A stretch of DNA of 64,000 bases from an uncultured Bacilli bacterium (GCA_947630105.1 CANRGD010000002.1:258-64257), one strand, 5' to 3'. Positions 8,980 through 64,000 are shown, counted from the stretch's first letter. Made by a program: numbers and translations. The notes: generated from the sequence alone by a model not told the origin.

Positions 8980-8981
8980 TA

Positions 8982-9404: not shown

Positions 9405-9585
9405 ATACCACTTAAAGTAAAGGATTTAAAAATATTGTCTCTTCTTAATTGTATGGAAAAATATATAATAGTTAATGATTATTTTTCTTCCGTAGAAGAA
9501 GTTAGTACGGATTTGTATTATGGTTTTATTATTGCAATGTTTAGAGTACCATATCGCCATTTAAAATATTTTTTTCTTAAAAAAA

Positions 9586-46025: not shown

Positions 46026-46035
46026 TTTTATCACC

Positions 46036-47565: not shown

Positions 47566-47948
47566 CTAAAATCTTCCTCTAATAATTCTATTAATCCTAA
47601 ATTCCACATTAAGAAAGCTACTTTTTTATTATTAAACAATATTGCTTCTTTTGGCTCTTTGACTAAAAAAGCACCATCTTTAACTAATTCTTGAATTGTA
47701 TTATCTATATTATTTACACTATAACAGGTATGATATAAGTATTGTTTTTTCTTTAACATATTTTGAACGATGGGTCCACTTATTAATTCTATTTTTATAT
47801 TATCAGCTAATGTTAACATACATAAATAGGCATCTTGATTTTGATCATATACAGTTTCACTTATGTTTTTGATATTTAAATATTTTTTTAATTGTTTTAT
47901 TTCCTCGTTTATATCTTGAGTTGCTATTCCGATATGATGAAATTTCAT
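47562..47948 (-). CDS. VOC (glyoxalase/methylmalonyl-CoA-epimerase fold) family protein
   Basis: The 128-aa protein begins MKFHHIGIATQDINEE, the typical first metal-ligand His strand. A second half-domain ends in ...VAFLMWNLGLIELLEE. Confidence 0.7.
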   Translation of the reverse strand: MKFHHIGIATQDINEEIKQLKKYLNIKNISETVYDQNQDAYLCMLTLADNIKIELISGPIVQNMLKKKQYLYHTCYSVNNIDNTIQELVKDGAFLVKEPKEAILFNNKKVAFLMWNLGLIELLEEDFR

Positions 47949-47955
47949 ACTTCAC

Positions 47956-48201
47956 CTACTTATTACTTCTAGAAGTAATAATATCTACCATTTCACCAAC
48001 ATTTTTCATAGATGTTACTTCATTCATATTAAATTTCATTCCAAATTCTTGTTCTATCGCAACTATTAAATTAATATGCTCTAAACTATCCCAATCTTCT
48101 ATATCAGCTGAAGTTGTATCTGCGTTTACAACTATTGTTTCATCATCAAATATATCTCTAAAAACATTATTTAATCTTTCATAAATTTCTTCTTTTTTCA
48201 T
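47956..48201 (-). CDS. Acyl/peptidyl carrier protein (DltC-like)
   Basis: 81-aa protein with EDWDSLEHINLIVAIEQEFG. The DSL serine is the phosphopantetheine attachment site. Confidence 0.9.
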   Translation of the reverse strand: MKKEEIYERLNNVFRDIFDDETIVVNADTTSADIEDWDSLEHINLIVAIEQEFGMKFNMNEVTSMKNVGEMVDIITSRSNK

Positions 48202-48204
48202 AAT

Positions 48205-49980
48205 TTAAATCACCTCTATAACATTATTTTTATTTTCATAATTAGCTAGCTCTAATTTATAAGTTTTATTGCCTTTAGAATCAGTTGATACTAATTCAAA
48301 ACCTAAATCATCATAAAAGTCTTTAACCATTTTATTCTTTTGAGTAGGATAATAGTAGCCATAAATTGTTGTGATTTTTTTGGCAGTTGCTCTTTTTACA
48401 AGTTCATCCATCATGGCTAATTCCATATTTCTTTTTAAAACTCGACAACTCATTATCCATAAGTCAAGATGTAATTCGGTCTTATTTTTAATATTACCAA
48501 TCACAACAGTTATTACACCATTATCTCCAAATATATCTTCTAATTTTCCATATATTTTAATATAATCATCACTATTAGCAACTTCTTCTATGTCAGCTAG
48601 AGAATATCTTTTAGTAGTTAAATTAAACTGATTACTCTTATTACTAAGTTGGGATATTCTTTCTAAATATATTGGTTTAAATGTAGAAATTTCCGCTACC
48701 ATTTTTAATGATTTTAAATAATCATCATAATTATCAAATGTGGCCATCATTTGACTTCTTTTAGCATTATCTTTATATAATTCAGTCTTTTTTATGTCTT
48801 CTTCACTAAAATTGGTTACTTCAAAATAAGCATTTTTATCAATTATTCTTATATAATTTTCTGGAATATCTATTTCAGGAGTAGCGATTCCTTCTATATA
48901 TGTTTTAACTATTTTTCTTTCTGCGGGATTGTCATCTACAAAGACAAAGCTATCAGCACCTAAATTTAATTCTTCGGCTATATCTTTAGTATTAATATTT
49001 TTAGGATTCCAGTTAGCTTTTATAATTATAAAATCTTCAGGTTTTAAATTACCTGCTGGATGATTTAGTCCGGCTATAGCATTTTCATAATCATTTTTGG
49101 AGTTAACATTTAAAATAATTCCTAATTTCTTATGTTCTTTTAAATATTGCTGGAATTCCAAGTAAACTTGACCACTAGGAACTTCAGGTCCAATACTTAA
49201 ATTATCAACTCCATCATCGCCAACTATTCCACCCCATAAGGTGTTATCTAAATCAAGTACAAAGGCTTTTTTATTTTTTCCATATATTGATTTAATAATA
49301 TTGGCGATATTAAATGCTAAATATGGTATTGCTGGTACTTCCATAGCATATTTATACATATGCCAATAAAATTGATTAGCCCATTTATCAAGTCCATAGC
49401 AAGATGAAACATAATTAATATCATTTATAAAAAAATTTTTAGTTGTATTAGCATAATCATAAAATTTTTGATTAAGTCTAGTAATAAAATTAATTCTACC
49501 ATGAATATCACTAGCATCTTTATTTCCAAGTAAGCGGTAATAAGGATATTCAAAATTATTTTGAATAATAGTAGCATTAAAGTTTTTTAATAACGAGTTC
49601 CATACTTTTTCAAATTTAGTATATTCTGCTTGCAACATTTCTTCAACTGTTTTATTATCATCTAAAACAGAGGGATAATTAGTAATATTTCTATTAGTAG
49701 TATGAATATAAATTATATCTGGATTAAAGTTATTTAATTTTTCATTTCCAAATACAGCATCTTCATAAAATTTATTATATTCTGACTCATAAAAATTAGG
49801 TTTTATTCCATAATTTAGTAAAAATATTTCTAACATATTTTTAATTTCACTAGTAGTGGAGCCTCCTAATATAGCAATATTTTTAGATAGTAAATTTTCT
49901 TTTTGTAATAGTTGCTTTTTTATTTTCTTCTTATTTTTAATTAAAAATTCTGAATCAAAGGGATATTCTAGTTCATTCAT
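48205..49980 (-). CDS. FkbH-like HAD-IIIC family protein (putative carrier-protein loading enzyme) with a ~250-aa N-terminal extension
   Basis: AFVLDLDNTLWGGIVGDDG is the HAD DxDxT nucleophile motif in its FkbH/IIIC form. It also has VDDNPAER and a C-terminal DLWIMSCRVLKRNME (FkbH-type Cys region). Start taken at ATG 49980 (MNELEY) behind GGTGA. Confidence 0.7.
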   Translation of the reverse strand: MNELEYPFDSEFLIKNKKKIKKQLLQKENLLSKNIAILGGSTTSEIKNMLEIFLLNYGIKPNFYESEYNKFYEDAVFGNEKLNNFNPDIIYIHTTNRNITNYPSVLDDNKTVEEMLQAEYTKFEKVWNSLLKNFNATIIQNNFEYPYYRLLGNKDASDIHGRINFITRLNQKFYDYANTTKNFFINDINYVSSCYGLDKWANQFYWHMYKYAMEVPAIPYLAFNIANIIKSIYGKNKKAFVLDLDNTLWGGIVGDDGVDNLSIGPEVPSGQVYLEFQQYLKEHKKLGIILNVNSKNDYENAIAGLNHPAGNLKPEDFIIIKANWNPKNINTKDIAEELNLGADSFVFVDDNPAERKIVKTYIEGIATPEIDIPENYIRIIDKNAYFEVTNFSEEDIKKTELYKDNAKRSQMMATFDNYDDYLKSLKMVAEISTFKPIYLERISQLSNKSNQFNLTTKRYSLADIEEVANSDDYIKIYGKLEDIFGDNGVITVVIGNIKNKTELHLDLWIMSCRVLKRNMELAMMDELVKRATAKKITTIYGYYYPTQKNKMVKDFYDDLGFELVSTDSKGNKTYKLELANYENKNNVIEVI

Positions 49981-50060
49981 ACTTTTCACCATATTTATAA
50001 TAACATATCCGTATTTTATTATCAATAAAAACATAGTATAATTCAATTAGGAGGGATATT

Positions 50061-50372
50061 ATGAAAATAGGTTGTGATATTGTAAAAAATGAAAGATTAC
50101 AAAATAAAAACAGGCGATTTATAGACTTAATTCTTACTAAAAAAGAACAAGAGGAATATAAAAAAAAGGGTCTATTTTATTTATGCGGAAGATTTGCTTG
50201 TAAAGAAGCAATAATGAAAGCTTTAGATAATACTAAAAAATTAACTTATTTAGATTTGGAAATATTAAATAAAGAAGATGGAAGTCCTTATTGTGTTAAT
50301 TATGATAATATTAAAATAACTATTTCTCATGAAAAAGAATATACAATGGCTGTTGCATTGGTGGAAGAATAA
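50061..50372 (+). CDS. acpS: Holo-[acyl-carrier-protein] synthase (AcpS-type PPTase), short form
   Basis: IGCDIV...LTKKEQEEY...CGRFACKEAIMKAL...LEILNKEDGSPY...ISHEKEYTMAVALVE aligns with the AcpS pattern (IGxDI, GRFAAKEA, G.P, SISH). AGGAGGG RBS. Confidence 0.8.
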   Translation: MKIGCDIVKNERLQNKNRRFIDLILTKKEQEEYKKKGLFYLCGRFACKEAIMKALDNTKKLTYLDLEILNKEDGSPYCVNYDNIKITISHEKEYTMAVALVEE

Positions 50373-52314: not shown

Positions 52315-52348
52315 ATAAAAAGACATTATCTTTATTTCGATAAGGTCT
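52315..52348 (-). terminator. Rho-independent terminator ending the glycopolymer operon
   Basis: Minus-strand stem AGACCTTATC / GATAATGTCT (one mismatch) followed by TTTTAT. It begins within the LCP stop codon. Confidence 0.65.
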
Positions 52349-54093
52349 TAATTTTTAACAACTTTTTTAATTTGCTTACTTGCAGTGGCAACTGTTTGTA
52401 AATTTGGTTCCATAACCCAATCAACATAATTTGTCATATGAACATAATCTTTTTTGTCTGTTCCATCTACAGCTTGTTCTATGATTTTCCATTTTCCTTT
52501 ATTATCTAAAGTAGTCTTAGCTAAATTATTAATTACTTCTCTTGGAATAGATGTTTCATATAAATTACTAAAAGAATCAAGAATATTGGTATAATTTGTA
52601 ATAGTATTAACATTATTTAATTTTTTAATAATTGCTAATAGGATTTGCCGACAGTTTTCTTGGCGAGCTCTATCTCTACCAGGTAAAGCTATTCTTTCTC
52701 TAGCTATAGTTAAGGCTTCAATACCATTAACATCTTGACAACCTTTTTTTACATATAATTTTTTACCTACTGTATCATTGTAAGTATTTAAAACTAAGGC
52801 ATGAGTCGTTTTAAATTCATAATCACTACAGAATGTTATTCCACCAATAGAATCAACTACTTCTACTAAACTAGTAGTATTTACTTTTATATAATAATCT
52901 ATTTTTATATCAAATAGATTTTCTAGAGCATGAATAGAAGTTTCTATTCCATAAGGTCCCATGTAACTTAAAGTATCTTTTTTACCATTATATTCTTTTA
53001 ATTCTAGATAATAATCACGAGGAATACTAGTCATTATAACTTTACTAGTACGCATATTAATACTAACAATCATATTAAAGTCCATATTAGTATTTGTAAA
53101 ATCAGTTCCTCCAATATATATATTAAATTCTTCTTTGGCTTCATTATTTTCTAGCTTTGTTTTAGATTTTACATCAATAGATAAAAGTACTTTAAAATCT
53201 TCTTCTTTTAAATTTTTATCTAATTCAAAAACTAAACTATAAGAAGATTTTTCAACATACATAAAATCTATTTTATTATTTTTTACATCAGTAAACATGG
53301 ATGTGACATCATCATAGGCTTGCAGATTAACTTCATATAATTTTTCTAATTCTTGATTAGCTTTTTTGATATTAGAAGTGTTTTTATAATATGCAACATC
53401 TCCTTCTATATCATATTTGGTATTTGAAGATGTAGCATTAGTTATAATATAATAAGTATTTGTATTTACTAAATATTCACTATTAAATGATTTATTTAAG
53501 AAATTATTCGTATTATGAAGATAATAACTTCCTGCTGTATTTATAATTATAGAAATTAATATAATAAATAGTGCTAAAACTTTTAAAAACTTTTTCTTAG
53601 AATTAAGTAAAAGAAAAGCAATAAATTGAATAAAGAGTAAAATAATTGATAAAATAATTAAATACATTGTGGGAATAATATTTAATTTTATAACTAAAAT
53701 TAAAAAGACTATTAAACAAATAAAACTAATTAGGGGAATAATATTTATTTTTTTTAGACGTTTTTTTACAACTACTTTTTTAGGTTTACTAGTAGTTTCA
53801 TATTCATCGTCGATTTTTATTTCTTCATCTTTATTATCTTCTTCATTTTCTACTAAGTCAGCTTGTTCTTTTAATGGTTTTCTATGACTTTTTTCTTCTT
53901 GTTTTAGTTTTTGCAAAATTTTATCTATATTTTCATCTTCTTCATATTCATCAGAAACTAAATCTGAATAATTAATTTCTTTTACTTTTTCATCAGTTTC
54001 TTCATCTAATATTTCAATTTCTTGTTCATATATTTTTTTGTTTTTAGTTTCACGACTTTCTTTTTCATGATTTTCATCTTTATACTTATTCAT
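52348..54093 (-). CDS. LCP (LytR-CpsA-Psr) family glycopolymer ligase with a long acidic N-terminal extension
   Basis: An LCP core (MTSIPRDYYL...TLSYMGPYG...VDSIGGITF...ALTIARER...RDRARQENCRQIL) follows about 110 acidic/Lys-rich residues and 2-3 TM segments. Confidence 0.85.
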   Translation of the reverse strand: MNKYKDENHEKESRETKNKKIYEQEIEILDEETDEKVKEINYSDLVSDEYEEDENIDKILQKLKQEEKSHRKPLKEQADLVENEEDNKDEEIKIDDEYETTSKPKKVVVKKRLKKINIIPLISFICLIVFLILVIKLNIIPTMYLIILSIILLFIQFIAFLLLNSKKKFLKVLALFIILISIIINTAGSYYLHNTNNFLNKSFNSEYLVNTNTYYIITNATSSNTKYDIEGDVAYYKNTSNIKKANQELEKLYEVNLQAYDDVTSMFTDVKNNKIDFMYVEKSSYSLVFELDKNLKEEDFKVLLSIDVKSKTKLENNEAKEEFNIYIGGTDFTNTNMDFNMIVSINMRTSKVIMTSIPRDYYLELKEYNGKKDTLSYMGPYGIETSIHALENLFDIKIDYYIKVNTTSLVEVVDSIGGITFCSDYEFKTTHALVLNTYNDTVGKKLYVKKGCQDVNGIEALTIARERIALPGRDRARQENCRQILLAIIKKLNNVNTITNYTNILDSFSNLYETSIPREVINNLAKTTLDNKGKWKIIEQAVDGTDKKDYVHMTNYVDWVMEPNLQTVATASKQIKKVVKN

Positions 54094-54136: not shown

Positions 54137-54604
54137 TTATAACATCTTTAATAATTTAGTATTAATTATTTCTCCTACAGCTGATTCATTACATTTATTA
54201 GGGGAAATATAATCAACAATATTTTTTATTTTTTCTATTGCGTCATTAGGACAAGCTTTAAAGCCACAATTAAGCATAGCTTCATAATCATTTTCATCGT
54301 CACCTATATAAGCGACATTGTCATAGGTTAAATTTTTGGCTGATAAAAGTTCATCTATTTTTTCTTTTTTATTAATTATATTTTGATAAACTTCACAAAT
54401 ATTCATTTCTTTAGCTCTATTTTCTACTATTTTTGATGTTCTTTTAGTTATTATTACAGTTGTAACTCCTAAAGAGGGCAATTTTTGTAGTGGTATAGTA
54501 TCATGACAATTAAAAGCTTTCATAGCTTCTCCATTAGGTCCCATATAAATTTTTCCATCTGTTAAAGTTCCATCAACATCTAAAATTAACATTTTTATTT
54601 TCAT
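54137..54604 (-). CDS. KdsC-like HAD-IIIA sugar-acid phosphate phosphatase
   Basis: LILDVDGTLTDGKIYMGPNGEAMKAFNCHD and YIGDDENDYEAM. The size (155 aa) and motifs match the KdsC / N-acylneuraminate-9-P phosphatase family. Confidence 0.8.
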   Translation of the reverse strand: MKIKMLILDVDGTLTDGKIYMGPNGEAMKAFNCHDTIPLQKLPSLGVTTVIITKRTSKIVENRAKEMNICEVYQNIINKKEKIDELLSAKNLTYDNVAYIGDDENDYEAMLNCGFKACPNDAIEKIKNIVDYISPNKCNESAVGEIINTKLLKML

Positions 54605-54620
54605 ACTTCACATCCTAATT

Positions 54621-55067
54621 TTACTTTTTTATATGTTTTTTTTCATACTCAACTATAGCATCAACCTTGGGGCCTGATCTTTTATTATAAACATAGCGAC
54701 AAGTAAAATAAGCATCTACTAATTCAAGGGCTAATTTATTGCCAATTGTTTGACTTCCTAAAGTAATGATATTACAGTTATTACTTAAACATGCTCGTTT
54801 GGCAGAGTAAACATCTGTTACATTAGCAGCATAAGCTCCATTTACTTTGTTAGCTGCAATCATCATTCCTATTCCAGTACCACAAATTAAAATACCTCTT
54901 TCGTATTCTTCATTAGCAACAGCTTCGGCTACTTTTATAGCTACATTAGCGTAAATAGGATCATCACTACCAAAATCTGTAACATCATGTCCTATATCTT
55001 TTAAAAATAAGGCAACTTCATTTTTTAATTTTTTGGCATTAGGATCACATCCAATTGCTACTTTCAT
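54621..55067 (-). CDS. RpiB/LacA/LacB family sugar-phosphate isomerase
   Basis: MKVAIGCDPNAKKLK...GILICGTGIGMMIAANK...NNCNIITLG in a 148-aa protein. Confidence 0.85.
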   Translation of the reverse strand: MKVAIGCDPNAKKLKNEVALFLKDIGHDVTDFGSDDPIYANVAIKVAEAVANEEYERGILICGTGIGMMIAANKVNGAYAANVTDVYSAKRACLSNNCNIITLGSQTIGNKLALELVDAYFTCRYVYNKRSGPKVDAIVEYEKKHIKK

Positions 55068-55095
55068 ATCTTAATATATCCTTTCAATTTTTATT

Positions 55096-56709
55096 TTATT
55101 TATTTTTTAAACAGCTACTAAATCTTGACTTAGTAATTAGAGTTATTGGTTCTTTGTGTTTCCTTGTTTCCATATAATCTCTTAACATCTTAGCTGTATC
55201 TTCATTAATGATTTTAAAGTCTTCTTTTACTTTTAATAATTCTAAATCTTTTGTGGCATAATTTTCTTTTCCTATATCATAACCATCAAATCCTGCAATA
55301 TTAATTGACTTAACATTTAATAAATCTAGTAATCTCATTAAAAGAATTGTGGAATTATCTAAATGTTCCCATCCACATTTAACTAATCTAGAAAATGATA
55401 CAATATATTCATTATCACTTGTTGCTTTGTTTTTGATATTAGATGTTATTATTTTATTTTTATTATATGATTCTAGTTTTTCTAATGAACTATATCTTCT
55501 TGTATTACTTATATAAACATAATCTATATTAATATTTTCTGGAATAAAACTAATTGATATAATTGTAGGCCTATATTGATTTATAAAATTTTGAATTTTT
55601 TTGTGTTCTTCTTTAATAGAATATCCTGGAGAAAGTATTAATATATCTTTTCCTTGAAGTTCTTGTTGTAATCTTTTGATAGTTTTTGCGTCATCTATAT
55701 CAGATGACATATATTTTAAATATGTTTCTTCTAAGAGATTATGAATAGCTTTTTTTCTAGCAATAGAACCAACTTGATTTAATATATATCTCATATCTTT
55801 TGAATGAATACTACTTTTATTTGCTAAATATTGAATATTATCTACATGACAACCATATGCTCCAGCAATAAAATATTCAGTATTATATCCCCAATTACAT
55901 TTTGTACGAATGTTGTCCATGTAATCATCAATAATATCAAGTAGGGAATCCATGTCATAATTATATTCCCATTTTGTATTTAAATACTGGGCAATTAATT
56001 CTGTTGGAGTATTACCTGCTCCTCTTCCCATTCCTGAAATAGTTCCATCTATTATTACATCTCTTTTACCAAAAGTCATACGAGCAAATTCTTGAGATAA
56101 GGAATTGGATAATTGCATATTATTGTGTGAATGAAATCCTATTCTACATGTTGATACTAAATTATGATTAATTATTTCAAATATTCTATGTAAATCTTCT
56201 TGATACATTGACCCAAAAGTATCAACAATAGAAAAACAGTAAGGCTCTATTTCATTTACTAATTTTATTAAATCTAATAATTCTTCATCCGTATAACCTA
56301 AAATATCTACTGGTTGAACAAATAATTTATAGCCTTTTTCTTTTATTTTTTTACAATTTTCTAATGCTTTAAACCTTTCATCTTTTTTAAAGCATTCACG
56401 TATTCCATCAATAGATTTAGGATCACAATTATCTAAATTATCAAGTGTATATCTACTATAATCAGATAAAACTGTAAAAAGGCAACCATTTTTATCTTTT
56501 GGAATATACTTTTTAACTTCTTTCGAATTTTTATATACAGTTTTTCCTGTCCCTGTTTCAGTATCTTGAAAAAAGCCTACTTCTATTATGTCAATTTTAG
56601 CTTTAACCAAACCGGAAATAATTCCTAATATGTTATTTTCGCCAAAATTCTTATTTAATAAATAAGCTCCATCTCTTAATGTACAATCTAATAATTTTAC
56701 ATGTTTCAT
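55096..56709 (-). CDS. DRE-TIM (HMGL-like) pyruvate-aldolase domain fused to a ~200-aa C-terminal domain of unknown function
   Basis: LLDCTLRDGAY (DxxxRDG), IGFHSHNN (HxH metal site) and ISGMGRGAGNTPTE, as in 4-hydroxy-2-oxovalerate aldolase / isopropylmalate synthase catalytic domains. The C-terminal part ends in ...SINIAGFDGY.... Confidence 0.7.
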   Translation of the reverse strand: MKHVKLLDCTLRDGAYLLNKNFGENNILGIISGLVKAKIDIIEVGFFQDTETGTGKTVYKNSKEVKKYIPKDKNGCLFTVLSDYSRYTLDNLDNCDPKSIDGIRECFKKDERFKALENCKKIKEKGYKLFVQPVDILGYTDEELLDLIKLVNEIEPYCFSIVDTFGSMYQEDLHRIFEIINHNLVSTCRIGFHSHNNMQLSNSLSQEFARMTFGKRDVIIDGTISGMGRGAGNTPTELIAQYLNTKWEYNYDMDSLLDIIDDYMDNIRTKCNWGYNTEYFIAGAYGCHVDNIQYLANKSSIHSKDMRYILNQVGSIARKKAIHNLLEETYLKYMSSDIDDAKTIKRLQQELQGKDILILSPGYSIKEEHKKIQNFINQYRPTIISISFIPENINIDYVYISNTRRYSSLEKLESYNKNKIITSNIKNKATSDNEYIVSFSRLVKCGWEHLDNSTILLMRLLDLLNVKSINIAGFDGYDIGKENYATKDLELLKVKEDFKIINEDTAKMLRDYMETRKHKEPITLITKSRFSSCLKNK

Positions 56710-56714
56710 TTTTA

Positions 56715-57374
56715 TTACTTCCTAACTATAATATTTGAATAAATTGCATTAGCAATCTCAAAATCTTCTGGATAATCTATATCAACACATTCAATTCCTT
56801 TTACTTCGGTTATATGAATTTTGCCTCCAATTCTTCTATGCTTAGTTTCATATAATTTTTTTGAAAATGCATATATTGCTGTAGTTTCACTATAAAGAGG
56901 GTCTAAATCTTGAGTTCTGGGAACATTGGTAGGATCAAAATTTAAAGCATTACCATCATCTTTCCATAATAGTTTTTGAATTTTTTCACCTGTAAATGAG
57001 GAATCGAATTTACCACTTTTTACTGCCTTGCAACATTCACTAATATGTGTAACTGTTACAAATGGTGATGTACAATTGCACATAACATACACATCTGCAT
57101 CTTTTATTTTCATAAATTCTTGGATTAAATTATTAGCTGTTGCTTTATCGGTATCTAAAAATGAAGGCCTTTTCAAAAAATTAACTTTGGGAATTAAATA
57201 ATCTTTTATTGTTTCATCACTACAAAAAACGTATATTTCATCTATCTCTTCACATTTAACTAATGTTTTTAAAAAAGCTGTTATTAAGGGAGTCCCATCA
57301 CTAAATTTTTTTGTATTTTTACCTGGCGTTCTTTGATTATTTAATTTAATTGGAACAAATGCTATAGTTTTCAA
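56715..57374 (-). CDS. Acylneuraminate/ulosonate cytidylyltransferase family protein (CMP-sugar-acid synthetase)
   Basis: N-terminus IAFVPIKLNNQRTPGKN (the P-loop-like CTP-binding motif of the CTP_transf_3 family). 219 aa, TTG start behind AGGAGTGA. Confidence 0.75.
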   Translation of the reverse strand: MKTIAFVPIKLNNQRTPGKNTKKFSDGTPLITAFLKTLVKCEEIDEIYVFCSDETIKDYLIPKVNFLKRPSFLDTDKATANNLIQEFMKIKDADVYVMCNCTSPFVTVTHISECCKAVKSGKFDSSFTGEKIQKLLWKDDGNALNFDPTNVPRTQDLDPLYSETTAIYAFSKKLYETKHRRIGGKIHITEVKGIECVDIDYPEDFEIANAIYSNIIVRK

Positions 57375-57498: not shown

Positions 57499-58926
57499 TT
57501 AATTTTTAATATAAATTTTATTTATTATTTCTTTTCTTTTTATAAAAATAATACTTACAATAATAACAATTATTAAATATCTCATTAAATAAAATTTATA
57601 TAGTGGTATTATAAGTAAAGATATTATTACAAATCCTAATGAAATAAGAAATATTTTTTTATCATCATAGTAACTAACACCAGGAGCATGTTTTTTTACA
57701 ATCTTTTTCATAAATATAAAATGTCCTACGGCATATAAAATATAACTTATTAAGGTTGTATATCCTGCTGCTAAATAACCAAATAATTTTATAAATATTA
57801 AATTTGTAACAATATTTACTATGGCTGCCATTAAAGATGCAATAGTTACGTATTTTGTTTCTGAGTAATAATATTCTATATTAGCAAACAAGTTAAATAA
57901 AAACATAAAATAAACGCTTCCTGTTATTGCAGGAATTATATAAATTGCCTCAAAATATTCTTTTGGTGCAAATATTTTAACTGCTTCAGGGGCAAATAAA
58001 ATCAGCAAAATATTTAAAATTGCTACTAAAATTATTAAAAAATTAGCATTTTGTTTTAATGATGATAATCCTTTATTATTTTTAATAGTTTTATATGTCA
58101 ATGGAGTTAATGATTTTAAAATAGCATCATTAACAATTATTAATAATGAAGATAAACTATAAGCTAAACTATATATTCCAGCTTGAGAAGCGCCACACAT
58201 ATCATTTATCATAATTCTATCAAATCTTGTTAAAACTTGAGTGGCTAAAAAATGGGGAATTAAGGGAATGCAATATATTAAAATAAATTTTATATATTTT
58301 TTATTAAATCTGTTTTTACTTTTTGAATAATTATAAATATAAACTATTAATCCAATAATAATATTAATTGTTGCTACTCCGTATATTCTTCCATAACCTT
58401 TATTAGGAATATATTTTATAGCAAGAAGTCCTAGTATAGGACCCATTATACCAATGATAATTGAAGCAAAAGTAACTAATTTATATTTAAAATTATATCT
58501 TTCTTTTGATGCCCACAAATTAAAAACAGCAAATGCTAACATATCAAAAAATAGTAGAATGACAATTGGCAAAGGAAATCCTATGATATTATTTTTTATT
58601 ATATTAATTATAAAATACAACACAAAACATAATAAAGTTAAGCCCGTAACTAATGATTGAGCAGTGGCGATAAATCCTTCTTTATCTTCATCATATTTTG
58701 CTAAGCCTGAATATGTTGCGTAATTAAATACATTTAGGGATGTAAAAATTATAAAAATATCATGCCATGATTGATATAAGGTATATTGAGCGTATTGACT
58801 AGTAGTAAGTATTCTAGTAAAAATGGGTGTAGCTAAAATTGTAACTCCCCTTTGAATAATATTAGCAATAAAAGCCCATAATGATGCCTTAGCTACTATT
58901 GATAATTTTTGATATTTTTTTAGCAT
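57499..58926 (-). CDS. Wzx-type oligosaccharide flippase (MOP superfamily)
   Basis: 475 aa with about 12-14 TM segments. Its N-terminal pattern and its location in a glycan locus are typical of polysaccharide biosynthesis (PST) proteins. Confidence 0.7.
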   Translation of the reverse strand: MLKKYQKLSIVAKASLWAFIANIIQRGVTILATPIFTRILTTSQYAQYTLYQSWHDIFIIFTSLNVFNYATYSGLAKYDEDKEGFIATAQSLVTGLTLLCFVLYFIINIIKNNIIGFPLPIVILLFFDMLAFAVFNLWASKERYNFKYKLVTFASIIIGIMGPILGLLAIKYIPNKGYGRIYGVATINIIIGLIVYIYNYSKSKNRFNKKYIKFILIYCIPLIPHFLATQVLTRFDRIMINDMCGASQAGIYSLAYSLSSLLIIVNDAILKSLTPLTYKTIKNNKGLSSLKQNANFLIILVAILNILLILFAPEAVKIFAPKEYFEAIYIIPAITGSVYFMFLFNLFANIEYYYSETKYVTIASLMAAIVNIVTNLIFIKLFGYLAAGYTTLISYILYAVGHFIFMKKIVKKHAPGVSYYDDKKIFLISLGFVIISLLIIPLYKFYLMRYLIIVIIVSIIFIKRKEIINKIYIKN

Positions 58927-58933
58927 TTTATCA

Positions 58934-60289
58934 CTACTTTCTTTTCGATTTTACTTTATCTTTATAAACTTCAAACTTTTCTCCTCTATAACCATCTAAT
59001 TTATAGTCTAAATCAAATTTATAATATATTTTTCTAGCTAATAATGAATTTTTAAATATTTTTCTTAATTTTTTAATTGGTAAATACCAACACCAAAGAT
59101 ATATATAAGAGCCAAAAGGAATTTTTATATTATTTTTTTTGGCTGTTTCTTTCATATCTCTAACATAAGAAATTTTTTGTTGGCCCATCATTTTACCTAT
59201 ATATTTTGTTTTATGTTTTAAAAAATTATTTATATCCATAACATCTTTTAAACTATCTAATTTTCCAAAAGCATAAAAATCAGTCATTGTTCTTAAACAT
59301 TTACTACATAAAGAACAATTTTTTAGATGTTTTCTTTCTTCTTTGCAAAAATACTTAACTCCACATATCATTAAATGTTTTTTCATTGGTAAATAATCAG
59401 CAATATATTCTTCCCGTTCAATTCTACTACATTCCATTCCTGATGAATAAAAACTTAAATTTTCTGTATTCATACAAAATAAAGTAAAAATATCGAATAC
59501 ACTACTATCATGGCCATCAGTTTTTGTTAAATCAAAATTAATTGATTCTATTGTTTCTCCAGCACTGGCATAATAAATATTAATTAATTTTTGTAGAGCA
59601 AAAGCTACTGAACCAAAAGTAGTTGTATAAAACATGTTAAATGCTTTATAAGGAAATTTATAAAATTCGAATAAATTATTATAACATCCTATGGTATCTA
59701 AATGACAATCAGTAGCTAATTTTTTAACTTCCTCATAAGTGTTTTTAAATGTGGAAGTCATCCTTTGTTCTACATTGTCAAGAGTTCCACTTGAACTATA
59801 AACTAAATGTGTCAATTTATGTTCTTTTGTTATACAATTTTGCCCATTTTTTAAAATAGTATAAAATGAATCTATTCCTCCACTACAACCAGTTGCTACT
59901 TTCTTTTCATTTTGTATTTCTTTATTATTATGAGGGCCTATTAATTTTATAGGATAAACTGGATAAGTAGCATTATATTTTGATAATATTGGTATATAAT
60001 AAGTTGTTAATTGATAATATAATCTTTCAGAAATAGGGGCTATAAATTCTATATTATTTCCTGTTTCTAAGGCACTTGACAACAGTCCCATAACGAATGC
60101 ATCACTACGAGTAACACATAAATATTCTTTATATTTTTCTTCAAATTCATAATAACATTTTTTTGTTTCGAGTTTATTATTATTTGGATTTTCCATTGTA
60201 ATATCAGCACATAATTTAACTGATTTCTCAAAAATATTTGATTTTCCTTCTTCTATATATGGTTTGGATATTTTTATTGTTTTTTGCAT
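58934..60289 (-). CDS. PP-loop (SGGxDS) ATP-pyrophosphatase-superfamily protein of unknown function, intact paralogue
   Basis: VATGCSGGIDSFYT (SGGIDS = 59867-59884) and a late Cys cluster NCSLCSKCLRT. 451 aa, roughly two-thirds identical by eye to the neighbouring gene. Confidence 0.6.
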   Translation of the reverse strand: MQKTIKISKPYIEEGKSNIFEKSVKLCADITMENPNNNKLETKKCYYEFEEKYKEYLCVTRSDAFVMGLLSSALETGNNIEFIAPISERLYYQLTTYYIPILSKYNATYPVYPIKLIGPHNNKEIQNEKKVATGCSGGIDSFYTILKNGQNCITKEHKLTHLVYSSSGTLDNVEQRMTSTFKNTYEEVKKLATDCHLDTIGCYNNLFEFYKFPYKAFNMFYTTTFGSVAFALQKLINIYYASAGETIESINFDLTKTDGHDSSVFDIFTLFCMNTENLSFYSSGMECSRIEREEYIADYLPMKKHLMICGVKYFCKEERKHLKNCSLCSKCLRTMTDFYAFGKLDSLKDVMDINNFLKHKTKYIGKMMGQQKISYVRDMKETAKKNNIKIPFGSYIYLWCWYLPIKKLRKIFKNSLLARKIYYKFDLDYKLDGYRGEKFEVYKDKVKSKRK

Positions 60290-60360: not shown

Positions 60361-61715
60361 CTAACGTTTTAATTTATCTTTATACATTTCATATTTTGGT
60401 CCACGATAACCATCTAATTTATAATCTAAATTAAATTTATAATATATTCTTCTAGCTAATAATGAATTTTTAAATGTTTTTCGTAAACATTTAATTGGTT
60501 TATACCAAAAATATGCATAAATATAAGAGCCATGTGGTATTTTGACATGATTTTTTTTGGCAAAGGCTTTAACATCTTTTATATATGATGATTTGGATAA
60601 ACCAATCATTCTTCCTATCCATTTTGTTTTATGTTTTAAAAAATTATTTACATCAAAAGCTTTGCCAAACTTTGTAATATCTTCCCCCCCCCACATACAT
60701 ATAACTCTGTAAGGGTTCTTAAACATTTTTCACATATTGAGCAATTTAATACTGAATTTTTATTAATATCTTGAAATGAACTATAAGGACAGACACTTAA
60801 ATATTTTTGGACAAGTGGTTCTTTTATAATATATTCTATCTTATCTATTCTTCTACATTCCATTCCTGATGAATAAAAGCTTAGATTTTCTGTATTCATA
60901 CATGATAATGTAAATACATCAAAAACTTGGCTATCATGTCCATTAATTCTATCTAAATCAAGACTAAATTCTGAAATTGGGCCTCCAGAACTTATATAAT
61001 ATATTTTAATTAATTTTTGTAGAGCATAAGCGATAGATCCATTTGTTGTAGAATAAAACATATTAAAAGCTCTAAATGGAAATTTATAAAATTCATATAA
61101 ATTGTTATAACAAGCAATTGTTTTTAAATTAGCTTCTTTTGCCATCGCTTCAACTTCTTCTAATTTTTTTAAATATGTCTTTTTTATTCTTTCTTCATTG
61201 TTATCAGAAGTGCAGTTGGAATTAAAGACAATATGCGTTAATTTGTTAGTTGCAATATCACATATTTTTCCATGCTTTATAATTGTATAAAAAGAATCAA
61301 CTCCTCCAGAATATCCAGTTGCGACTGCTTTACTATTTTCTATTTTTGTATTATCAAGATCTCCTATTAATTTTATAGAATGCATAGGATAAGTTGGATT
61401 ATGTTTTGAAACCATAGGAATATAATAGGTTGTTAATTGATAATATAATTTTTCAGAAATTGGGGCTTTAAATTCTATATCATAACCAAGTTCCATGGCA
61501 CTAGATAAAATTCCCATAACAAAAGCATCACTACGAGTATCACATAAATATTTTTTATATTCCCTATTAAATTCAAAATAGCACTTCTTTTTTTCTAACT
61601 TTTGAGTATTTGGATTTTCCATTGTTATATGAGCACATAATTTAACAGAATTTTTAAATATATCGGATTTTTCCTCTTCAATAAATGGTTTGGATATAAT
61701 TATTTTCTTTTTCAT
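60361..61715 (-). pseudogene. PP-loop paralogue split by a frameshift in a poly-G tract (currently OFF; candidate phase-variable gene)
   Basis: ORFs 60648-61715 and 60361-60726 are the two halves of one homologue of 58934-60289. The frames switch inside G9 (60684-60692). G10 or G7 would give CGGGEDITKFGKAFDV... and a 451-aa product. Confidence 0.85.
60684..60692 (-). repeat. Homopolymeric G9 (C9 on the + strand) tract
   Basis: Counted directly: cttCCCCCCC CCacat. It is the only G/C run of 8 or more that I could find by eye in the window. Confidence 0.95.
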
Positions 61716-61730
61716 AACTTTAAACTCCTT

Positions 61731-62876
61731 TTACTTAATCTTATTTTCCTTTATTTCTTCTAATAAGTTATTAAACTCTGTTACAGTTTTAGGAAAATAT
61801 ACCCCTTTTTTACCTTTTATTGCTTCAAAATTTTCCCAAAATTGAGAATATTTTTCATTCATGCAAATTGAATTTGTTTTTATCATTTTAAATAACATAA
61901 TTCCTATAAAATTATTTCCAAAAAACATTTTATAATTTGGTATTGTATTACTATTAATTGCAATAAACACTTTATCAGAAAAATCATTTGTAAAAGTTAT
62001 TGCTTCCCATGGAATACCATCACTTCCTAATGTTTTTATTCCTTTTTTACTAAATCTATTATTCTCAATTCTAGGATGTAATTTAATTATAACATTTTCT
62101 TTTCCAACTTTTTTAATTACTTGGTCATACAGTTTTTCATCATCTATTGTAGGATCATTAGCAATCAATGCTTCTTCAAATATAATGTATTTTCGATCAT
62201 ATTTTTTAGCAATATCACCAACTTCAAAAATATCTGTTATGTAATTTATTATTTTTTTATTATTTTTTTTACGATCAATTTTATAAACTGGATATTTTGG
62301 TTTTTTTATTAATAAATTTGGTTCAAATAAATATAGCCCATCAATATTTTCTCTAATTACATTAGAATACCCATAAATTCTATTTCTATATTCAATTAAT
62401 TTTAAAAATCCTTTTTTGGGAATAATTTCTTCAATTGGAAAATATGAAACATAACCTTCATCAAATAAATATATTTTAATAGGTTTTTTTATAAAAGAAA
62501 AATAACTTCTAAAGCTTGCAGAAAAGGCATCATAATTCCAACAATACATTTCATCATATAATTCTATATTTCCTATAGTTTTCTTTAACATGTATTTTGG
62601 TCTTAAAATGTAATATAACTTTTTCAAATTAGTAAAATAATATTTAAAATCAATATTTTTTTGTTTGACTATTGGTAATAAAGTGTTTTTTATTTTAACA
62701 ATATATATATTATCAAATATATGTTTTTCTTTTATTCTTTGAGCTACTTTTTCATAATTATTAAAAGTATCAGTTATAATCAAGTCAACTTTATCTTTTT
62801 CTTTACAAAATTGTTCTTTAATATAAAGTGCAACAATTATTTGATAAGGTGTTTGAACCATTATAACTTTTTTCAT
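61731..62876 (-). CDS. Putative glycosyltransferase (N-terminus resembles GT52 sialyltransferase-like enzymes)
   Basis: MKKVIMVQTPYQIIVALYIKEQF resembles the xxIIxxTPLQxLIAxxI start of GT52 proteins. It is a soluble 381-aa protein inside a glycan locus. The call rests on recollection only. Confidence 0.35.
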   Translation of the reverse strand: MKKVIMVQTPYQIIVALYIKEQFCKEKDKVDLIITDTFNNYEKVAQRIKEKHIFDNIYIVKIKNTLLPIVKQKNIDFKYYFTNLKKLYYILRPKYMLKKTIGNIELYDEMYCWNYDAFSASFRSYFSFIKKPIKIYLFDEGYVSYFPIEEIIPKKGFLKLIEYRNRIYGYSNVIRENIDGLYLFEPNLLIKKPKYPVYKIDRKKNNKKIINYITDIFEVGDIAKKYDRKYIIFEEALIANDPTIDDEKLYDQVIKKVGKENVIIKLHPRIENNRFSKKGIKTLGSDGIPWEAITFTNDFSDKVFIAINSNTIPNYKMFFGNNFIGIMLFKMIKTNSICMNEKYSQFWENFEAIKGKKGVYFPKTVTEFNNLLEEIKENKIK

Positions 62877-62963: not shown

Positions 62964-64000
62964 TTACTTACTTTTTTCATTTATCTCTTTACTACTTCTG
63001 ATTTCTAAAAGCCCTGACATTAATAAGTAACAATATATTCCAAATATTTGATGAATATTACATACATAAGACTCTACTAAAGAAGAAATAAGTAAGATAA
63101 TAAAAATTCCAATTATAAGTATTTTTTGCCTTTTATCTTCTAGAGATAAGGCCTTTTTTATTATATAAATATATGAAAATAAAAAACCAAGCAAACCAAT
63201 AACTCCATTTTTTATTAACGTATTTATAAAACCCATTTCATAGGAACCATTATATCCATTTAACTTATTTTCTTTTAAAAATTTTCTTATATTCCAAATA
63301 TAAGAGTCATCTTTTTTAAATGCCATTTCGGAATAACCAAAATATAAATGAAATTTATCTTTTTTAACAAATTTTAAATAATTTTCTACTCCTCGTATAC
63401 GATAAGCATAGGTTTTACTTTTTAATATAAAGTTTTTATATGTAAAACTACCAAATATTATAAAAACAAATATTATAATAATAGAAAAAATAATTTTAAT
63501 ACCCGGTGAGAATTTTTTTGGGGGAATTTTTTTATAGATTTTTGGATTATTCAAAAATTCTAATAAAACAAATAATAAGAATAAGATGTATCCTCCTCTA
63601 GATACAGTAATTATTTCTAATATTCCAAGAAAAAATAATACTAATAAATCAATATTTTGCTTTTTTTCATGTCTATAATATAATAATAGTCCCATAAAAC
63701 TAGCCAGTATAGTAGTAGAAAGAAAATTTTTAAATTGCATACCGCCTGTAAATGCATATTTTATGGGAAAGGAAAAGGCAGTATCGTTAATTTTTTCTAA
63801 TACGCTTGTTCCTGTTATTAAGGCAATGGTAGTGGTTGCTAAAATTCCAAAGATTAACCCATAGGATGCAGCTCTTATATTTTTATAATTATTTAAGTAT
63901 TTACTCGATAAAATAATATAAACTGCTAAGGCAATCATAGTTAATATTAATCTTAATTTTGTAAATATATCTAAATTTTGGAATATCAATCCTATACAAA
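62964..64000 (-). CDS. Wzy/O-antigen-ligase-like polytopic membrane protein (5' end probably beyond the window)
   Basis: About 10 TM segments with a larger loop region (residues ~190-250 of the visible part). The frame is still open at nt 64000, and the TTG at 63989 is only the first in-window start. Confidence 0.5.
   Translation of the reverse strand, partial: CIGLIFQNLDIFTKLRLILTMIALAVYIILSSKYLNNYKNIRAASYGLIFGILATTTIALITGTSVLEKINDTAFSFPIKYAFTGGMQFKNFLSTTILASFMGLLLYYRHEKKQNIDLLVLFFLGILEIITVSRGGYILFLLFVLLEFLNNPKIYKKIPPKKFSPGIKIIFSIIIIFVFIIFGSFTYKNFILKSKTYAYRIRGVENYLKFVKKDKFHLYFGYSEMAFKKDDSYIWNIRKFLKENKLNGYNGSYEMGFINTLIKNGVIGLLGFLFSYIYIIKKALSLEDKRQKILIIGIFIILLISSLVESYVCNIHQIFGIYCYLLMSGLLEIRSSKEINEKSK

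What the first reader, a model, noticed from the sequence alone, without database searches (positions are those of the whole stretch)
54137..57374. Non-canonical four-gene route to a CMP-3-deoxy-ulosonic acid in a Gram-positive spore-former
Four adjacent genes mirror the logic of CMP-Kdo synthesis (KdsD isomerase, KdsA synthase, KdsC phosphatase, KdsB cytidylyltransferase), but two steps are filled by unrelated folds. An RpiB/LacAB-type sugar-phosphate isomerase stands in for the SIS-type KdsD. A DRE-TIM metallo-aldolase domain (DxTLRDG, HSH) stands in for the PEP-dependent KdsA/NeuB; this is the family of pyruvate aldolases such as 4-hydroxy-2-oxovalerate aldolase. The KdsC-like phosphatase and a CMP-sugar-acid synthetase-family enzyme complete the set. 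The simplest reading is pentose/hexose-phosphate isomerisation, aldol addition of pyruvate to give a 2-keto-3-deoxy-ulosonate phosphate, dephosphorylation, then CMP activation. The adjacent sialyltransferase-like GT would use the product. A pyruvate-dependent (not PEP-dependent) ulosonic acid pathway would be biochemically new as far as I know.
Basis: inference. Interest (0 to 1): 0.7.

Follow-up and report, generated by a model that had tools for sequence, protein, structure and literature searches.

The report
Aldolase-based CMP-sugar-acid pathway module
A cell-wall polysaccharide operon of a low-GC Gram-positive gut bacterium carries a widespread but unstudied gene set that probably makes a CMP-activated 3-deoxy sugar acid with a metal-dependent aldolase instead of the usual PEP-dependent synthase.

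Summary
The four genes are real. They are tightly packed on the minus strand, and all four domain assignments hold.

- **Core.** It is a cytidylyltransferase, a 537-aa aldolase and a HAD phosphatase. In 41 related loci without an adjacent ThDP enzyme, the cytidylyltransferase was adjacent in 41, a phosphatase lay within 1.5 kb in 32, and a sialyltransferase-like transferase lay within 8 kb in 32.
- **Aldolase.** It is a two-domain fusion. The N-terminal domain is closest to pyruvate aldolases (DmpG, PDB 3dxi), not to acyl-CoA synthases.
- **RpiB-like gene.** It is a lineage-specific accessory, present in 2 of 41 loci. It lacks the ring-opening histidine. Its 68–75 % identical orthologues sit in Dak-kinase and TIM clusters typical of tetrulose catabolism. 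It is therefore more likely an erythrose-4-P/erythrulose-4-P isomerase than a KdsD substitute. This points to a seven-carbon product, not Kdo.

No NeuB- or KdsA-type synthase recurs in these loci. No paper describing the module was found.

Verdict: partly supported, a new variant of the CMP-ulosonic acid pathway. The biochemistry is inferred, not shown.

The parts
56715..57374 (-). Cytidylyltransferase of the CMP-ulosonic acid synthetase family (219 aa).
   Evidence: PF02348 scores 54.6 bits against a cut-off of 22.6. The best NCBIfam hits are PseF and KdsB, all far below their equivalog cut-offs. The nearest solved structures are NeuA enzymes 9t4z, 1qwj and 6ifd. This gene is adjacent to the aldolase in 41 of 41 loci.
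55720..56709 (-). N-terminal DRE-TIM metallo-aldolase domain of the 537-aa fusion (about residues 1–330).
   Evidence: PF00682 matches. PRK08195 and TIGR03217 aldolase models are the best NCBIfam hits. PDB 3dxi scores 2e-23 and DmpG 1nvm 1e-12. Foldseek ranks 1nvm and 3dxi at the top. R12, D13, H193 and H195 are invariant, and the DmpG base His21 is replaced by invariant Tyr16.
55099..55707 (-). C-terminal MptE/SteA-like domain of the same protein (residues 335–537). Its function is unknown; it probably binds a nucleotide.
   Evidence: The AF2 model has pLDDT 89.5 and pTM 0.89. Foldseek finds SteA 9hmz at 3e-5 and the M. jannaschii HPPK (MptE) 8sd5 at 6e-5. NCBIfam SteA scores 5.8e-5, and a profile search against PDB finds 9hmz at 0.005. 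There is no Pfam hit. Invariant residues are PG(361–362), N402, R405, S423, N424, D451, N452, G473, D475 and G476.
54621..55067 (-). RpiB/LacAB-family sugar-phosphate isomerase (148 aa), probably an EryI/DerI-like tetrose-4-phosphate isomerase. It is a lineage-specific accessory gene.
   Evidence: PF02502 scores 144 bits. The residues equivalent to E. coli RpiB His10, His99 and His134 are Pro, Ser and Ser (the numbering is from my own knowledge). Orthologues at 68–75 % identity lie in Dak, TIM and PdxA/DUF1537 clusters. The gene is present in only 2 of 41 aldolase loci.
54137..54604 (-). KdsC/YrbI-family HAD phosphatase (155 aa).
   Evidence: TIGR01670 scores 134.4 against 106.95. The nearest solved structures are AQ2171 and the KdsC enzymes 3i6b and 2r8e. 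The DxDGT and GDDxND motifs are visible in the sequence.
61731..62876 (-). Sialyltransferase-like (GT38/GT52-related) glycosyltransferase (381 aa), the presumed user of the CMP-sugar.
   Evidence: The protein has no direct Pfam hit. An iterated HMM joins it to a family in which 11 of 17 members hit PF07388 and 5 of 17 hit PF07922, down to 4e-22. The residues K..HP and P.E are invariant.
57499..58926 (-). Wzx-type flippase.
   Evidence: PF01943 scores 68 bits.
58934..60289 (-). Uncharacterised 451-aa protein with a PP-loop-like SGGxDS motif and a CxxCxxC motif. It may be a tailoring enzyme.
   Evidence: It has no Pfam, NCBIfam or PDB match. S136, G138, D140, C325, C328 and C331 are invariant. 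It co-occurs with the GT381-type transferase in 6 related loci.
60361..61715 (-). Disrupted paralogue of the 451-aa gene, read as two overlapping ORFs of 355 and 121 aa.
   Evidence: The translations are collinear with the 451-aa protein.
62964..63989 (-). Wzy/O-antigen-ligase-like membrane protein.
   Evidence: PF04932 scores 27 bits, below its cut-off of 31.7.
52348..54093 (-). LytR-CpsA-Psr (LCP) ligase, which attaches glycopolymers to the cell wall.
   Evidence: PF03816 scores 99 bits. An LCP gene also follows the module in L055.

Best explanation
The operon encodes a three-enzyme route to a CMP-activated 3-deoxy-2-ulosonic acid, which is built into a Wzx/Wzy-type cell-wall glycopolymer.

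1. **Condensation (inferred).** The DRE-TIM domain of the 537-aa fusion holds a pyruvate enolate on its metal. The enolate comes from pyruvate or from oxaloacetate decarboxylation. It is added to the carbonyl of a phosphorylated short sugar, giving a 4-hydroxy-2-oxo acid phosphate.
2. **Dephosphorylation (inferred).** The KdsC-type phosphatase removes the terminal phosphate.
3. **Activation (inferred).** The NeuA/KdsB-family enzyme makes the CMP-sugar.
4. **Transfer and export (inferred).** The GT38/GT52-like transferase uses the CMP-sugar. Wzx, Wzy and LCP then export, polymerise and anchor the polymer.

In this lineage an EryI/DerI-like isomerase inside the operon links the acceptor to the erythrose-4-P/erythrulose-4-P pair. 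The most likely product is therefore a seven-carbon ulosonic acid: DAH-like if the acceptor is the aldose, branched if it is the ketose.

The invariant C-terminal MptE/SteA-like domain probably binds a nucleotide, either as a kinase or as a regulator. Its role is unknown.

Only gene content, homology, conserved residues and co-occurrence are shown. Every chemical step is inference.
For: **Domain identities**
- All four assignments hold.

**The aldolase domain**
- It is closest to DmpG-type pyruvate aldolases and to 3dxi.
- The metal ligands and the enolate-stabilising Arg are invariant.
- The basic residues R104 and R229 are invariant across the whole family, and K109 is invariant in the CT-linked loci. 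DmpG has Thr, Ala and Ala at these positions. This fits an anionic acceptor.

**Co-occurrence (41 loci)**
- Cytidylyltransferase adjacent: 41 of 41.
- HAD phosphatase within 1.5 kb: 32 of 41. It is sometimes a non-orthologous HAD or is fused to the cytidylyltransferase.
- MptE-like or polyST/GT52-like transferase within 8 kb: 32 of 41.
- The usual gene order is transferase, cytidylyltransferase, aldolase, phosphatase.

**Absence of alternatives**
- No NeuB, KdsA or NeuC family recurs in these loci.

**Sister loci**
- There the aldolase is paired with a ThDP enzyme, another class that acts on 2-oxo acids.

**The isomerase**
- One MAG has two such loci, each with its own copy of the isomerase, so the gene is not housekeeping.
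- The isomerase orthogroup sits with Dak kinases and TIM-like genes. This matches the EryH/EryI tetrulose route (PMC5992420, PMC10733421).

**Precedent**
- RhiG is a biosynthetic HMGL-like aldolase (PMC8942020).
Against: - There are no biochemical data. The acceptor, the donor and the product are all inferred.
- Pyruvate aldol additions are thermodynamically weak compared with PEP-dependent synthases.
- The catalytic His of DmpG is replaced by Tyr, so the chemistry may differ.
- The conserved C-terminal domain has no role in this scheme.
- 9 of 41 loci show no phosphatase within 1.5 kb.
- If erythrose-4-P is the acceptor, an operon-encoded isomerase seems unnecessary, because erythrose-4-P is a pentose-phosphate-pathway metabolite.
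- If erythrulose-4-P is the acceptor, most loci would depend on an isomerase encoded elsewhere.
- I know of no glycan reported to contain a 3-deoxy-heptulosonic acid.
Confidence: 0.55

Rival explanations
1. The module makes CMP-Kdo or a close C8 analogue. The RpiB-like enzyme replaces KdsD to supply arabinose-5-P or ribose-5-P, and the aldolase replaces KdsA.
For: - The best-scoring specific models for the phosphatase are Kdo-8-P phosphatases.
- The RpiB subfamily model NF004051 is passed.
- A His-less RpiB could still convert acyclic ribulose-5-P to an aldopentose phosphate (my own knowledge of T. cruzi RpiB mutants).
Against: - The isomerase is absent from 39 of 41 loci.
- Its orthogroup is found with Dak kinases, TIM and PdxA/DUF1537 genes. 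It was never found with the aldolase in 40 metagenome loci.
- It lacks the ring-opening His and two phosphate-site His residues.
- The KdsC and KdsB equivalog cut-offs are not reached.
Confidence: 0.12
2. The fusion protein acts on a cytidine-nucleotide-linked sugar. The MptE-like domain binds CMP or CDP, and the TIM-barrel domain extends or cleaves a side chain of an already activated sugar. The cytidylyltransferase would then act before the aldolase, not after it.
For: - MptE-like folds include nucleotide-using enzymes. MptE-like (PF01973) transferases also neighbour many of these modules.
- In the sister loci the aldolase sits among CDP-deoxyhexose-type genes: an NDP-sugar nucleotidyltransferase, a 4,6-dehydratase, an E1-like DegT and a YerE-like ThDP enzyme.
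- The C-terminal polar residues are invariant in both groups.
Against: - Gram-positive loci contain no other enzyme that could make an ulosonic acid for the PF02348 enzyme to activate.
- The conserved KdsC-type phosphatase has no role in this scheme.
- Similarity of the C-terminal domain to MptE-like proteins is weak at sequence level (hhalign probability 31 %).
Confidence: 0.15
3. The DRE-TIM domain is a Claisen-type, acyl-CoA-dependent synthase like IPMS or citramalate synthase. It would make a branched hydroxy-acid substituent rather than a sugar acid.
For: - Weak hits to IPMS, homocitrate and citramalate synthase models.
- Foldseek also lists these enzymes.
- Most DRE-TIM enzymes add to ketone carbonyls.
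Against: - Aldolase models score highest: 90.9 and 76.7 bits, against 50.7 bits or less for the synthases.
- 3dxi and DmpG are the best PDB sequence and fold matches.
- The RDGEQ motif of the synthases is absent; the motif here is RDGAY.
- Strict pairing with a CMP-ulosonate-type cytidylyltransferase and a KdsC-type phosphatase would be unexplained.
Confidence: 0.08

Closest known systems
KDN pathway of Bacteroides thetaiotaomicron (KDN-9-P synthase, KDN-9-P phosphatase BT1713, CMP-KDN synthetase) and the Kdo pathway (KdsD, KdsA, KdsC, KdsB)
   Same: The logic is the same: condense a three-carbon unit with a sugar phosphate, remove the phosphate with a KdsC-family HAD enzyme, then activate with a PF02348 cytidylyltransferase. 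The phosphatase and the cytidylyltransferase are homologous. Cytidylyltransferase–phosphatase fusions occur here too.
   Different: The synthase is a DRE-TIM metallo-aldolase fused to an MptE-like domain, not a NeuB/KdsA-type PEP-dependent enzyme. There is no SIS isomerase. The equivalog cut-offs for KdsC, the KDN-9-P phosphatase, KdsB and PseF are all missed. The acceptor is probably a tetrose phosphate.
4-hydroxy-2-oxovalerate aldolase DmpG/BphI (PDB 1nvm)
   Same: Both have the DRE-TIM fold. The metal ligands Asp/His/His and the Arg that stabilises the pyruvate enolate are conserved. DmpG is the best characterised relative by sequence and by fold.
   Different: The TIGR03217 cut-off is missed (76.7 against 286). 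The catalytic His21 is Tyr. Extra invariant basic residues are present. There is no DmpF dehydrogenase partner. A 200-aa C-terminal domain is added. The context is biosynthetic, not catabolic.
PDB 3dxi, N-terminal domain of putative aldolase BVU_2661 from Bacteroides vulgatus (structural genomics, no function assigned)
   Same: It is the closest solved relative (2e-23). It shares the DCTLRDGxY and GMGRGAGN motifs, and it is itself only the N-terminal domain of a longer protein (title).
   Different: No function is known, so it adds no mechanistic information.
RhiG of rhizocticin biosynthesis (HMGL-like aldolase)
   Same: It is a DRE-TIM aldolase used biosynthetically to make a 4-hydroxy-2-oxo acid from an anionic aldehyde (PMC8942020). 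From my own knowledge, it uses oxaloacetate as the enolate source.
   Different: It belongs to a phosphonate pathway. It has no cytidylyltransferase or phosphatase partners and no MptE-like domain.
EryI/DerI, RpiB-type D-erythrulose-4-P/D-erythrose-4-P isomerases
   Same: They belong to the same Pfam family. The NF051858 hit scores 131 bits. Orthologues of the window gene sit next to Dak-type kinases and TIM-like genes, as in the described tetrulose route (PMC5992420).
   Different: The score is below the NF051858 cut-off of 240. Here the gene is embedded in a polysaccharide operon, so the physiological direction is unknown.

Membership tests
Kdo biosynthesis (KdsD-KdsA-KdsC-KdsB) | SIS-domain arabinose-5-P isomerase KdsD. 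| tested here: not met
   The isomerase is PF02502 LacAB_rpiB, not SIS.
Kdo biosynthesis (KdsD-KdsA-KdsC-KdsB) | PEP-dependent Kdo-8-P synthase KdsA. | tested here: not met
   No such ORF lies in 52–64 kb of the window. No recurrent family of that kind occurs in the 86 related loci.
Kdo biosynthesis (KdsD-KdsA-KdsC-KdsB) | Kdo-8-P phosphatase KdsC at equivalog level. | tested here: not met
   The subfamily model TIGR01670 is passed (134.4 against 106.95). The equivalog NF007019 scores 125.2 against 208.
Kdo biosynthesis (KdsD-KdsA-KdsC-KdsB) | CMP-Kdo synthetase KdsB. | tested here: not met
   NF003952 scores 33.9 against 193.
CMP-ulosonic acid synthetase superfamily (PF02348) | Match to the family model above its cut-off. 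| tested here: met
   The score is 54.6 against 22.6. The nearest PDB entries are NeuA enzymes. There is no hit to IspD/TarI or TagD-type CDP-alcohol enzymes.
DRE-TIM metallolyase superfamily | TIM barrel with the D-x-x-x-R-D(E) motif and an H-x-H metal site. | tested here: met
   PF00682 scores 80.7 against 29. LDCTLRDG and HSH are invariant.
4-hydroxy-2-oxovalerate aldolase (DmpG/BphI) | Equivalog score, the catalytic His after RDGx, and a DmpF-type dehydrogenase partner. | tested here: not met
   TIGR03217 scores 76.7 against 286. The His is replaced by invariant Tyr16. No dehydrogenase partner is in the locus.
Acyl-CoA-dependent DRE-TIM synthases (IPMS, citramalate and homocitrate synthases) | Equivalog scores and the RDGEQ motif. 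| tested here: not met
   The best score is 50.7 against 697. The motif here is RDGAY.
Ribose-5-phosphate isomerase B | rpiB equivalog score and the active-site His residues, including the ring-opening His. | tested here: not met
   TIGR01120 scores 107.8 against 138.65, and only the subfamily model NF004051 is passed. The His positions are Pro, Ser and Ser in the whole orthogroup. The residue roles are from my own knowledge.
EryI/DerI D-erythrulose-4-P isomerase | Equivalog score, and genomic association with tetrulose kinases and TIM-like EryH. | tested here: inconclusive
   NF051858 scores 131 against 240. Of 40 metagenome loci holding orthologues, 16 have a TIM gene, 10 have a Dak gene and 4 have PdxA/DUF1537. 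No activity has been tested.
MptE-like (PF01973) domain | Match to the Pfam model, and the MptE/SteA fold. | tested here: inconclusive
   There is no Pfam hit even at E = 10. Foldseek finds SteA at 3e-5 and MjHPPK at 6e-5, with TM-scores of 0.43–0.53. hhalign gives probability 31 %.
Bacterial sialyltransferase-like GTs (GT38 polyST, GT52) | Match to PF07388 or PF07922, and an HP motif. | tested here: inconclusive
   The window protein has no direct hit. Of the 17 members of its iterated family, 11 hit PF07388 and 5 hit PF07922. K..HP is invariant.

The most novel reading that the evidence does not exclude
Many gut bacteria would decorate their surface polymers with a previously undescribed CMP-activated seven-carbon 3-deoxy-2-ulosonic acid, linear and DAH-like or branched. 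The hosts include Lachnospiraceae, Oscillospiraceae, uncultured Bacilli, and some Helicobacter, Fibrobacter and Bacteroidales. The sugar would be made from a tetrose phosphate by a PEP-independent DRE-TIM aldolase whose fused MptE-like domain has a catalytic or regulatory nucleotide-dependent role. This would be a third, non-homologous solution to ulosonic acid synthesis, alongside NeuB and KdsA.
Probability: 0.3. Interest if true: 0.85.

Novelty: new variant of a known kind. Interest (0 to 1): 0.68.

Why it matters
Ulosonic acids such as Kdo, sialic, pseudaminic and legionaminic acids are key surface determinants in host–microbe recognition. All known biosynthetic routes use homologous PEP-dependent synthases.

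A widespread aldolase-based route would have three consequences.
- Genome surveys that look for NeuB or KdsA miss a whole class of acidic surface sugars in gut Firmicutes. The family has more than 5,000 proteins and 486 matches among the GTDB species genomes.
- It would define a new enzyme activity for the DRE-TIM superfamily.
- It would give a function to an unannotated two-domain family, including the structural-genomics entry 3dxi.

The question is directly testable with four small soluble proteins.

Tried and rejected
**Literature**
None found a paper on an HMGL-like or DRE-TIM aldolase paired with a cytidylyltransferase in glycan synthesis.
- Searching '3dxi' returned only ultrasound papers.
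- The MptE structure paper was not found.

**Source organism**
- The exact protein is on record only on a 2-kb ENA contig and an unnamed NCBI contig.
- The closest species genome is an uncultured Bacilli MAG, with an aldolase 76 % identical.

**Structure searches**
- The whole-protein Foldseek search was dominated by the TIM barrel. The C-terminal domain had to be modelled separately.

**Operon signals**
- The promoter and terminator scan was no better than shuffled sequence in this AT-rich DNA.

**The 451-aa protein**
- Pfam, NCBIfam and PDB profile searches found nothing.

**Readings rejected**
- *Housekeeping RpiB.* One MAG carries two such loci, each with its own copy.
- *CDP-alcohol cytidylyltransferase.* Only PF02348 matches.

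Full report
**Observation**

The window is AT-rich, at about 25 % G+C. At 54137–57374 it has four co-directional minus-strand ORFs separated by 5, 28 and 16 bp.
- The 219-aa protein matches PF02348 cytidylyltransferase.
- The 537-aa protein matches PF00682 HMGL-like. Its best NCBIfam hits are 4-hydroxy-2-oxovalerate aldolase models.
- The 148-aa protein matches PF02502 LacAB_rpiB.
- The 155-aa protein passes the KdsC/YrbI subfamily model TIGR01670.

None of them reaches an equivalog cut-off for KdsB, PseF, DmpG, RpiB, KdsC or the KDN-9-P phosphatase. They are therefore members of the right superfamilies, but not of any characterised orthologous group.

The genes sit in a surface-polymer locus. 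Its other genes encode a Wzy-like protein, a 381-aa transferase, a 451-aa unknown protein with a disrupted paralogue, a Wzx flippase and, downstream, an LCP ligase. SpoIVB, a sortase and the LCP gene in the window fit a Gram-positive endospore-former.

**The aldolase is a two-domain fusion**

*N-terminal domain.* Residues 1 to about 330 are a DRE-TIM barrel.
- The nearest solved relatives are 3dxi (2e-23) and DmpG 1nvm (1e-12). 3dxi is the N-terminal domain of an uncharacterised Bacteroides 'putative aldolase'. IPMS and homocitrate synthases are much weaker.
- Foldseek on an AF2 model (pLDDT 84) gives the same order.
- R12, D13, H193 and H195 correspond to DmpG Arg17, Asp18, His200 and His202, and they are invariant. 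The DmpG base His21 is an invariant Tyr. R104, K109 and R229 are basic where DmpG has Thr, Ala and Ala.

*C-terminal domain.* Residues 335–537 have no Pfam match.
- They fold confidently on their own (pLDDT 89.5, pTM 0.89).
- They resemble SteA (3e-5) and the archaeal pterin pyrophosphokinase MptE (6e-5).
- Weak sequence evidence points the same way.
- About a dozen polar residues of this domain are invariant across the family. The domain is therefore likely functional, probably in nucleotide binding, but I cannot assign its role.
- It occurs in 662 clusters at 50 % identity. Many of the listed hits are fusions of 520–560 aa. Many others are shorter, including a recurrent size of about 230 aa that looks like a standalone form; some of the short ones may be fragments.

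**Distribution and co-occurrence**

The fusion family has more than 5,000 members in the protein collection. It has 486 matches among the GTDB species genomes. These are mainly Lachnospiraceae, Oscillospiraceae and uncultured Bacilli, with some Helicobacter, Fibrobacter, Victivallaceae and Bacteroidales.

I called ORFs in 86 loci and clustered the neighbours. Of the 49 scored loci with at least 3 kb on both sides, 41 have no adjacent ThDP enzyme. Among these 41:
- 41 have the cytidylyltransferase within 300 bp of the aldolase.
- 32 have a HAD phosphatase within 1.5 kb. It is KdsC-type, a non-orthologous HAD, or fused to the cytidylyltransferase.
- 32 have an MptE-like (PF01973) or polysialyltransferase/GT52-like gene within 8 kb.

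The usual gene order is transferase, cytidylyltransferase, aldolase, phosphatase. No NeuB-, KdsA- or NeuC-like family recurs; the other neighbours are flippases, acyl-, methyl- and pyruvyl-transferases and LCP.

The window's 381-aa transferase has no direct Pfam hit. It joins a family in which 11 of 17 members hit PF07388 and 5 of 17 hit GT52, with invariant K..HP.

**A sister set of loci**

In eight loci the aldolase is about 40 % identical to the window protein. There it is followed by a ThDP enzyme (PF02776, PF00205, PF02775) instead of being preceded by a cytidylyltransferase. An SDR, a HAD, an E1-like DegT, a 4,6-dehydratase and a nucleotidyltransferase are often present too.

Both partner classes, CMP-ulosonate synthetases and ThDP enzymes, act at C2 of 2-oxo acids. 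This is what one expects if the fusion makes a 4-hydroxy-2-oxo acid. It also keeps alive the rival idea that the enzyme works on cytidine-nucleotide-linked sugars.

**The isomerase**

The RpiB-like gene is present in only 2 of the 41 loci. Counting the window and shorter contigs, it appears in four loci in all, every one from low-GC Bacilli. One MAG has two such loci, each with its own copy, so the gene is pathway-specific there.

The gene belongs to a tight orthogroup at 68–75 % identity, with invariant GCDPNA, RACLSNNCNIITLGS and ERSGxKVDA. From my knowledge of RpiB structures, this orthogroup lacks the equivalents of E. coli His10, His99 (ring opening) and His134.

Other members of the orthogroup lie in three kinds of context:
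- polyol dehydrogenase plus Dak1 and Dak2 plus an ABC transporter;
- a Dak fusion plus TIM;
- PdxA plus a DUF1537 kinase plus KdgT.

In 40 metagenome loci of at least 6 kb, 16 have a TIM gene, 10 a Dak kinase, 4 PdxA/DUF1537 and none the aldolase. This is the signature of the tetrulose-phosphate to erythrose-4-P route. In that route a dihydroxyacetone-type kinase, a TIM-like EryH and an RpiB-type EryI/DerI act in turn (PMC5992420, PMC10733421).

The gene is therefore most likely an erythrulose-4-P/erythrose-4-P isomerase that was recruited into the operon. It is not a replacement for KdsD.

**Mechanism proposed**

A pyruvate enolate, from pyruvate or from oxaloacetate, is added to a phosphorylated short sugar. 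The product is dephosphorylated, CMP-activated and transferred. With a tetrose-4-phosphate acceptor the product has seven carbons.

Which isomer is the acceptor is open. Erythrose-4-P would give a DAH-like acid, but it makes the operon-encoded isomerase hard to justify. Erythrulose-4-P would give a branched acid, which fits the habit of DRE-TIM enzymes of adding to ketones, but it requires an isomerase elsewhere in most hosts.

All chemistry here is inference.

**Comparison and novelty**

The scheme copies the KDN and Kdo pathways in logic. It shares their phosphatase and cytidylyltransferase families. The synthase, however, is non-homologous and carries an extra domain.

RhiG is a precedent for a biosynthetic HMGL-like aldolase (PMC8942020). 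No paper on this module was found in ten searches, and public names are generic, such as 'aldolase catalytic domain-containing protein'.

I rate it a new variant of a known kind, of real interest but unproven.

Noticed in passing
L073, L077, L078, L081–L084, L086 (aldolase at about 8001–9600 in each): A sister clade of the aldolase–MptE fusion is about 40 % identical to the window protein. It is always followed by a roughly 600-aa ThDP enzyme (ALS/YerE-like). An SDR, a HAD phosphatase, an E1-like DegT, a 4,6-dehydratase and a nucleotidyltransferase are often present too. This may be a separate, also uncharacterised, sugar pathway.
   Followed up: partly
window 58934–60289 and 60361–61715: The 451-aa protein has a PP-loop-like SGGxDS motif and an invariant CxxCxxC motif, but matches no Pfam, NCBIfam or PDB entry. 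Next to it lies a disrupted paralogue split into two ORFs. The family co-occurs with the GT381-type transferase in six related loci. It may be an ATP-dependent tailoring enzyme, such as an amidotransferase.
   Followed up: partly
window 44985–50372: This gene set comprises an FkbH-like loader (613 aa), an 81-aa carrier protein, a glyoxalase-like protein, an MBOAT, a 368-aa unknown protein and a divergent 4'-phosphopantetheinyl transferase. It looks like a Dlt-style carrier-protein-dependent O-acylation system for a wall polymer. An MBOAT plus a small ORF also lies just upstream of the module in L002.
   Followed up: no
L007 and L014 (both from MAG Lapin-028__bin30): One genome carries two complete copies of the module, with aldolases 76 % and 62 % identical to the window protein. 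Each copy has its own isomerase, transferase and 451-aa gene. This suggests alternative surface polymers.
   Followed up: no
L059 9613–10507, L060 2214–4042, also L015, L017, L035, L069: In Helicobacter and some Clostridia loci the aldolase is followed by SAM-methyltransferase-like genes: a zinc-ribbon class I type and a TylF-like type. This suggests an O-methylated form of the sugar. The assignment is by eye from the sequences only.
   Followed up: no
window 38374–39354 and 37484–38365: A SpoIVB peptidase (PF05580, 229 bits) and a sortase are present. They support the 'Gram-positive spore-former' label. The closest species genome is only an uncultured Bacilli MAG.
   Followed up: partly
L088 2558–6444, L091 6001–10238, L111–L113, L125: The His-less RpiB-like orthogroup recurs with PdxA-like dehydrogenase, a DUF1537 acid-sugar kinase, KdgT and often TIM. 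This catabolic cluster's need for an aldose–ketose isomerase is not explained by the published threonate and erythronate routes, as far as I recall them.
   Followed up: no
window 47921–48184 (+): This 87-aa ORF lies antisense to the carrier-protein gene and is low in complexity. It is almost certainly not a gene.
   Followed up: no
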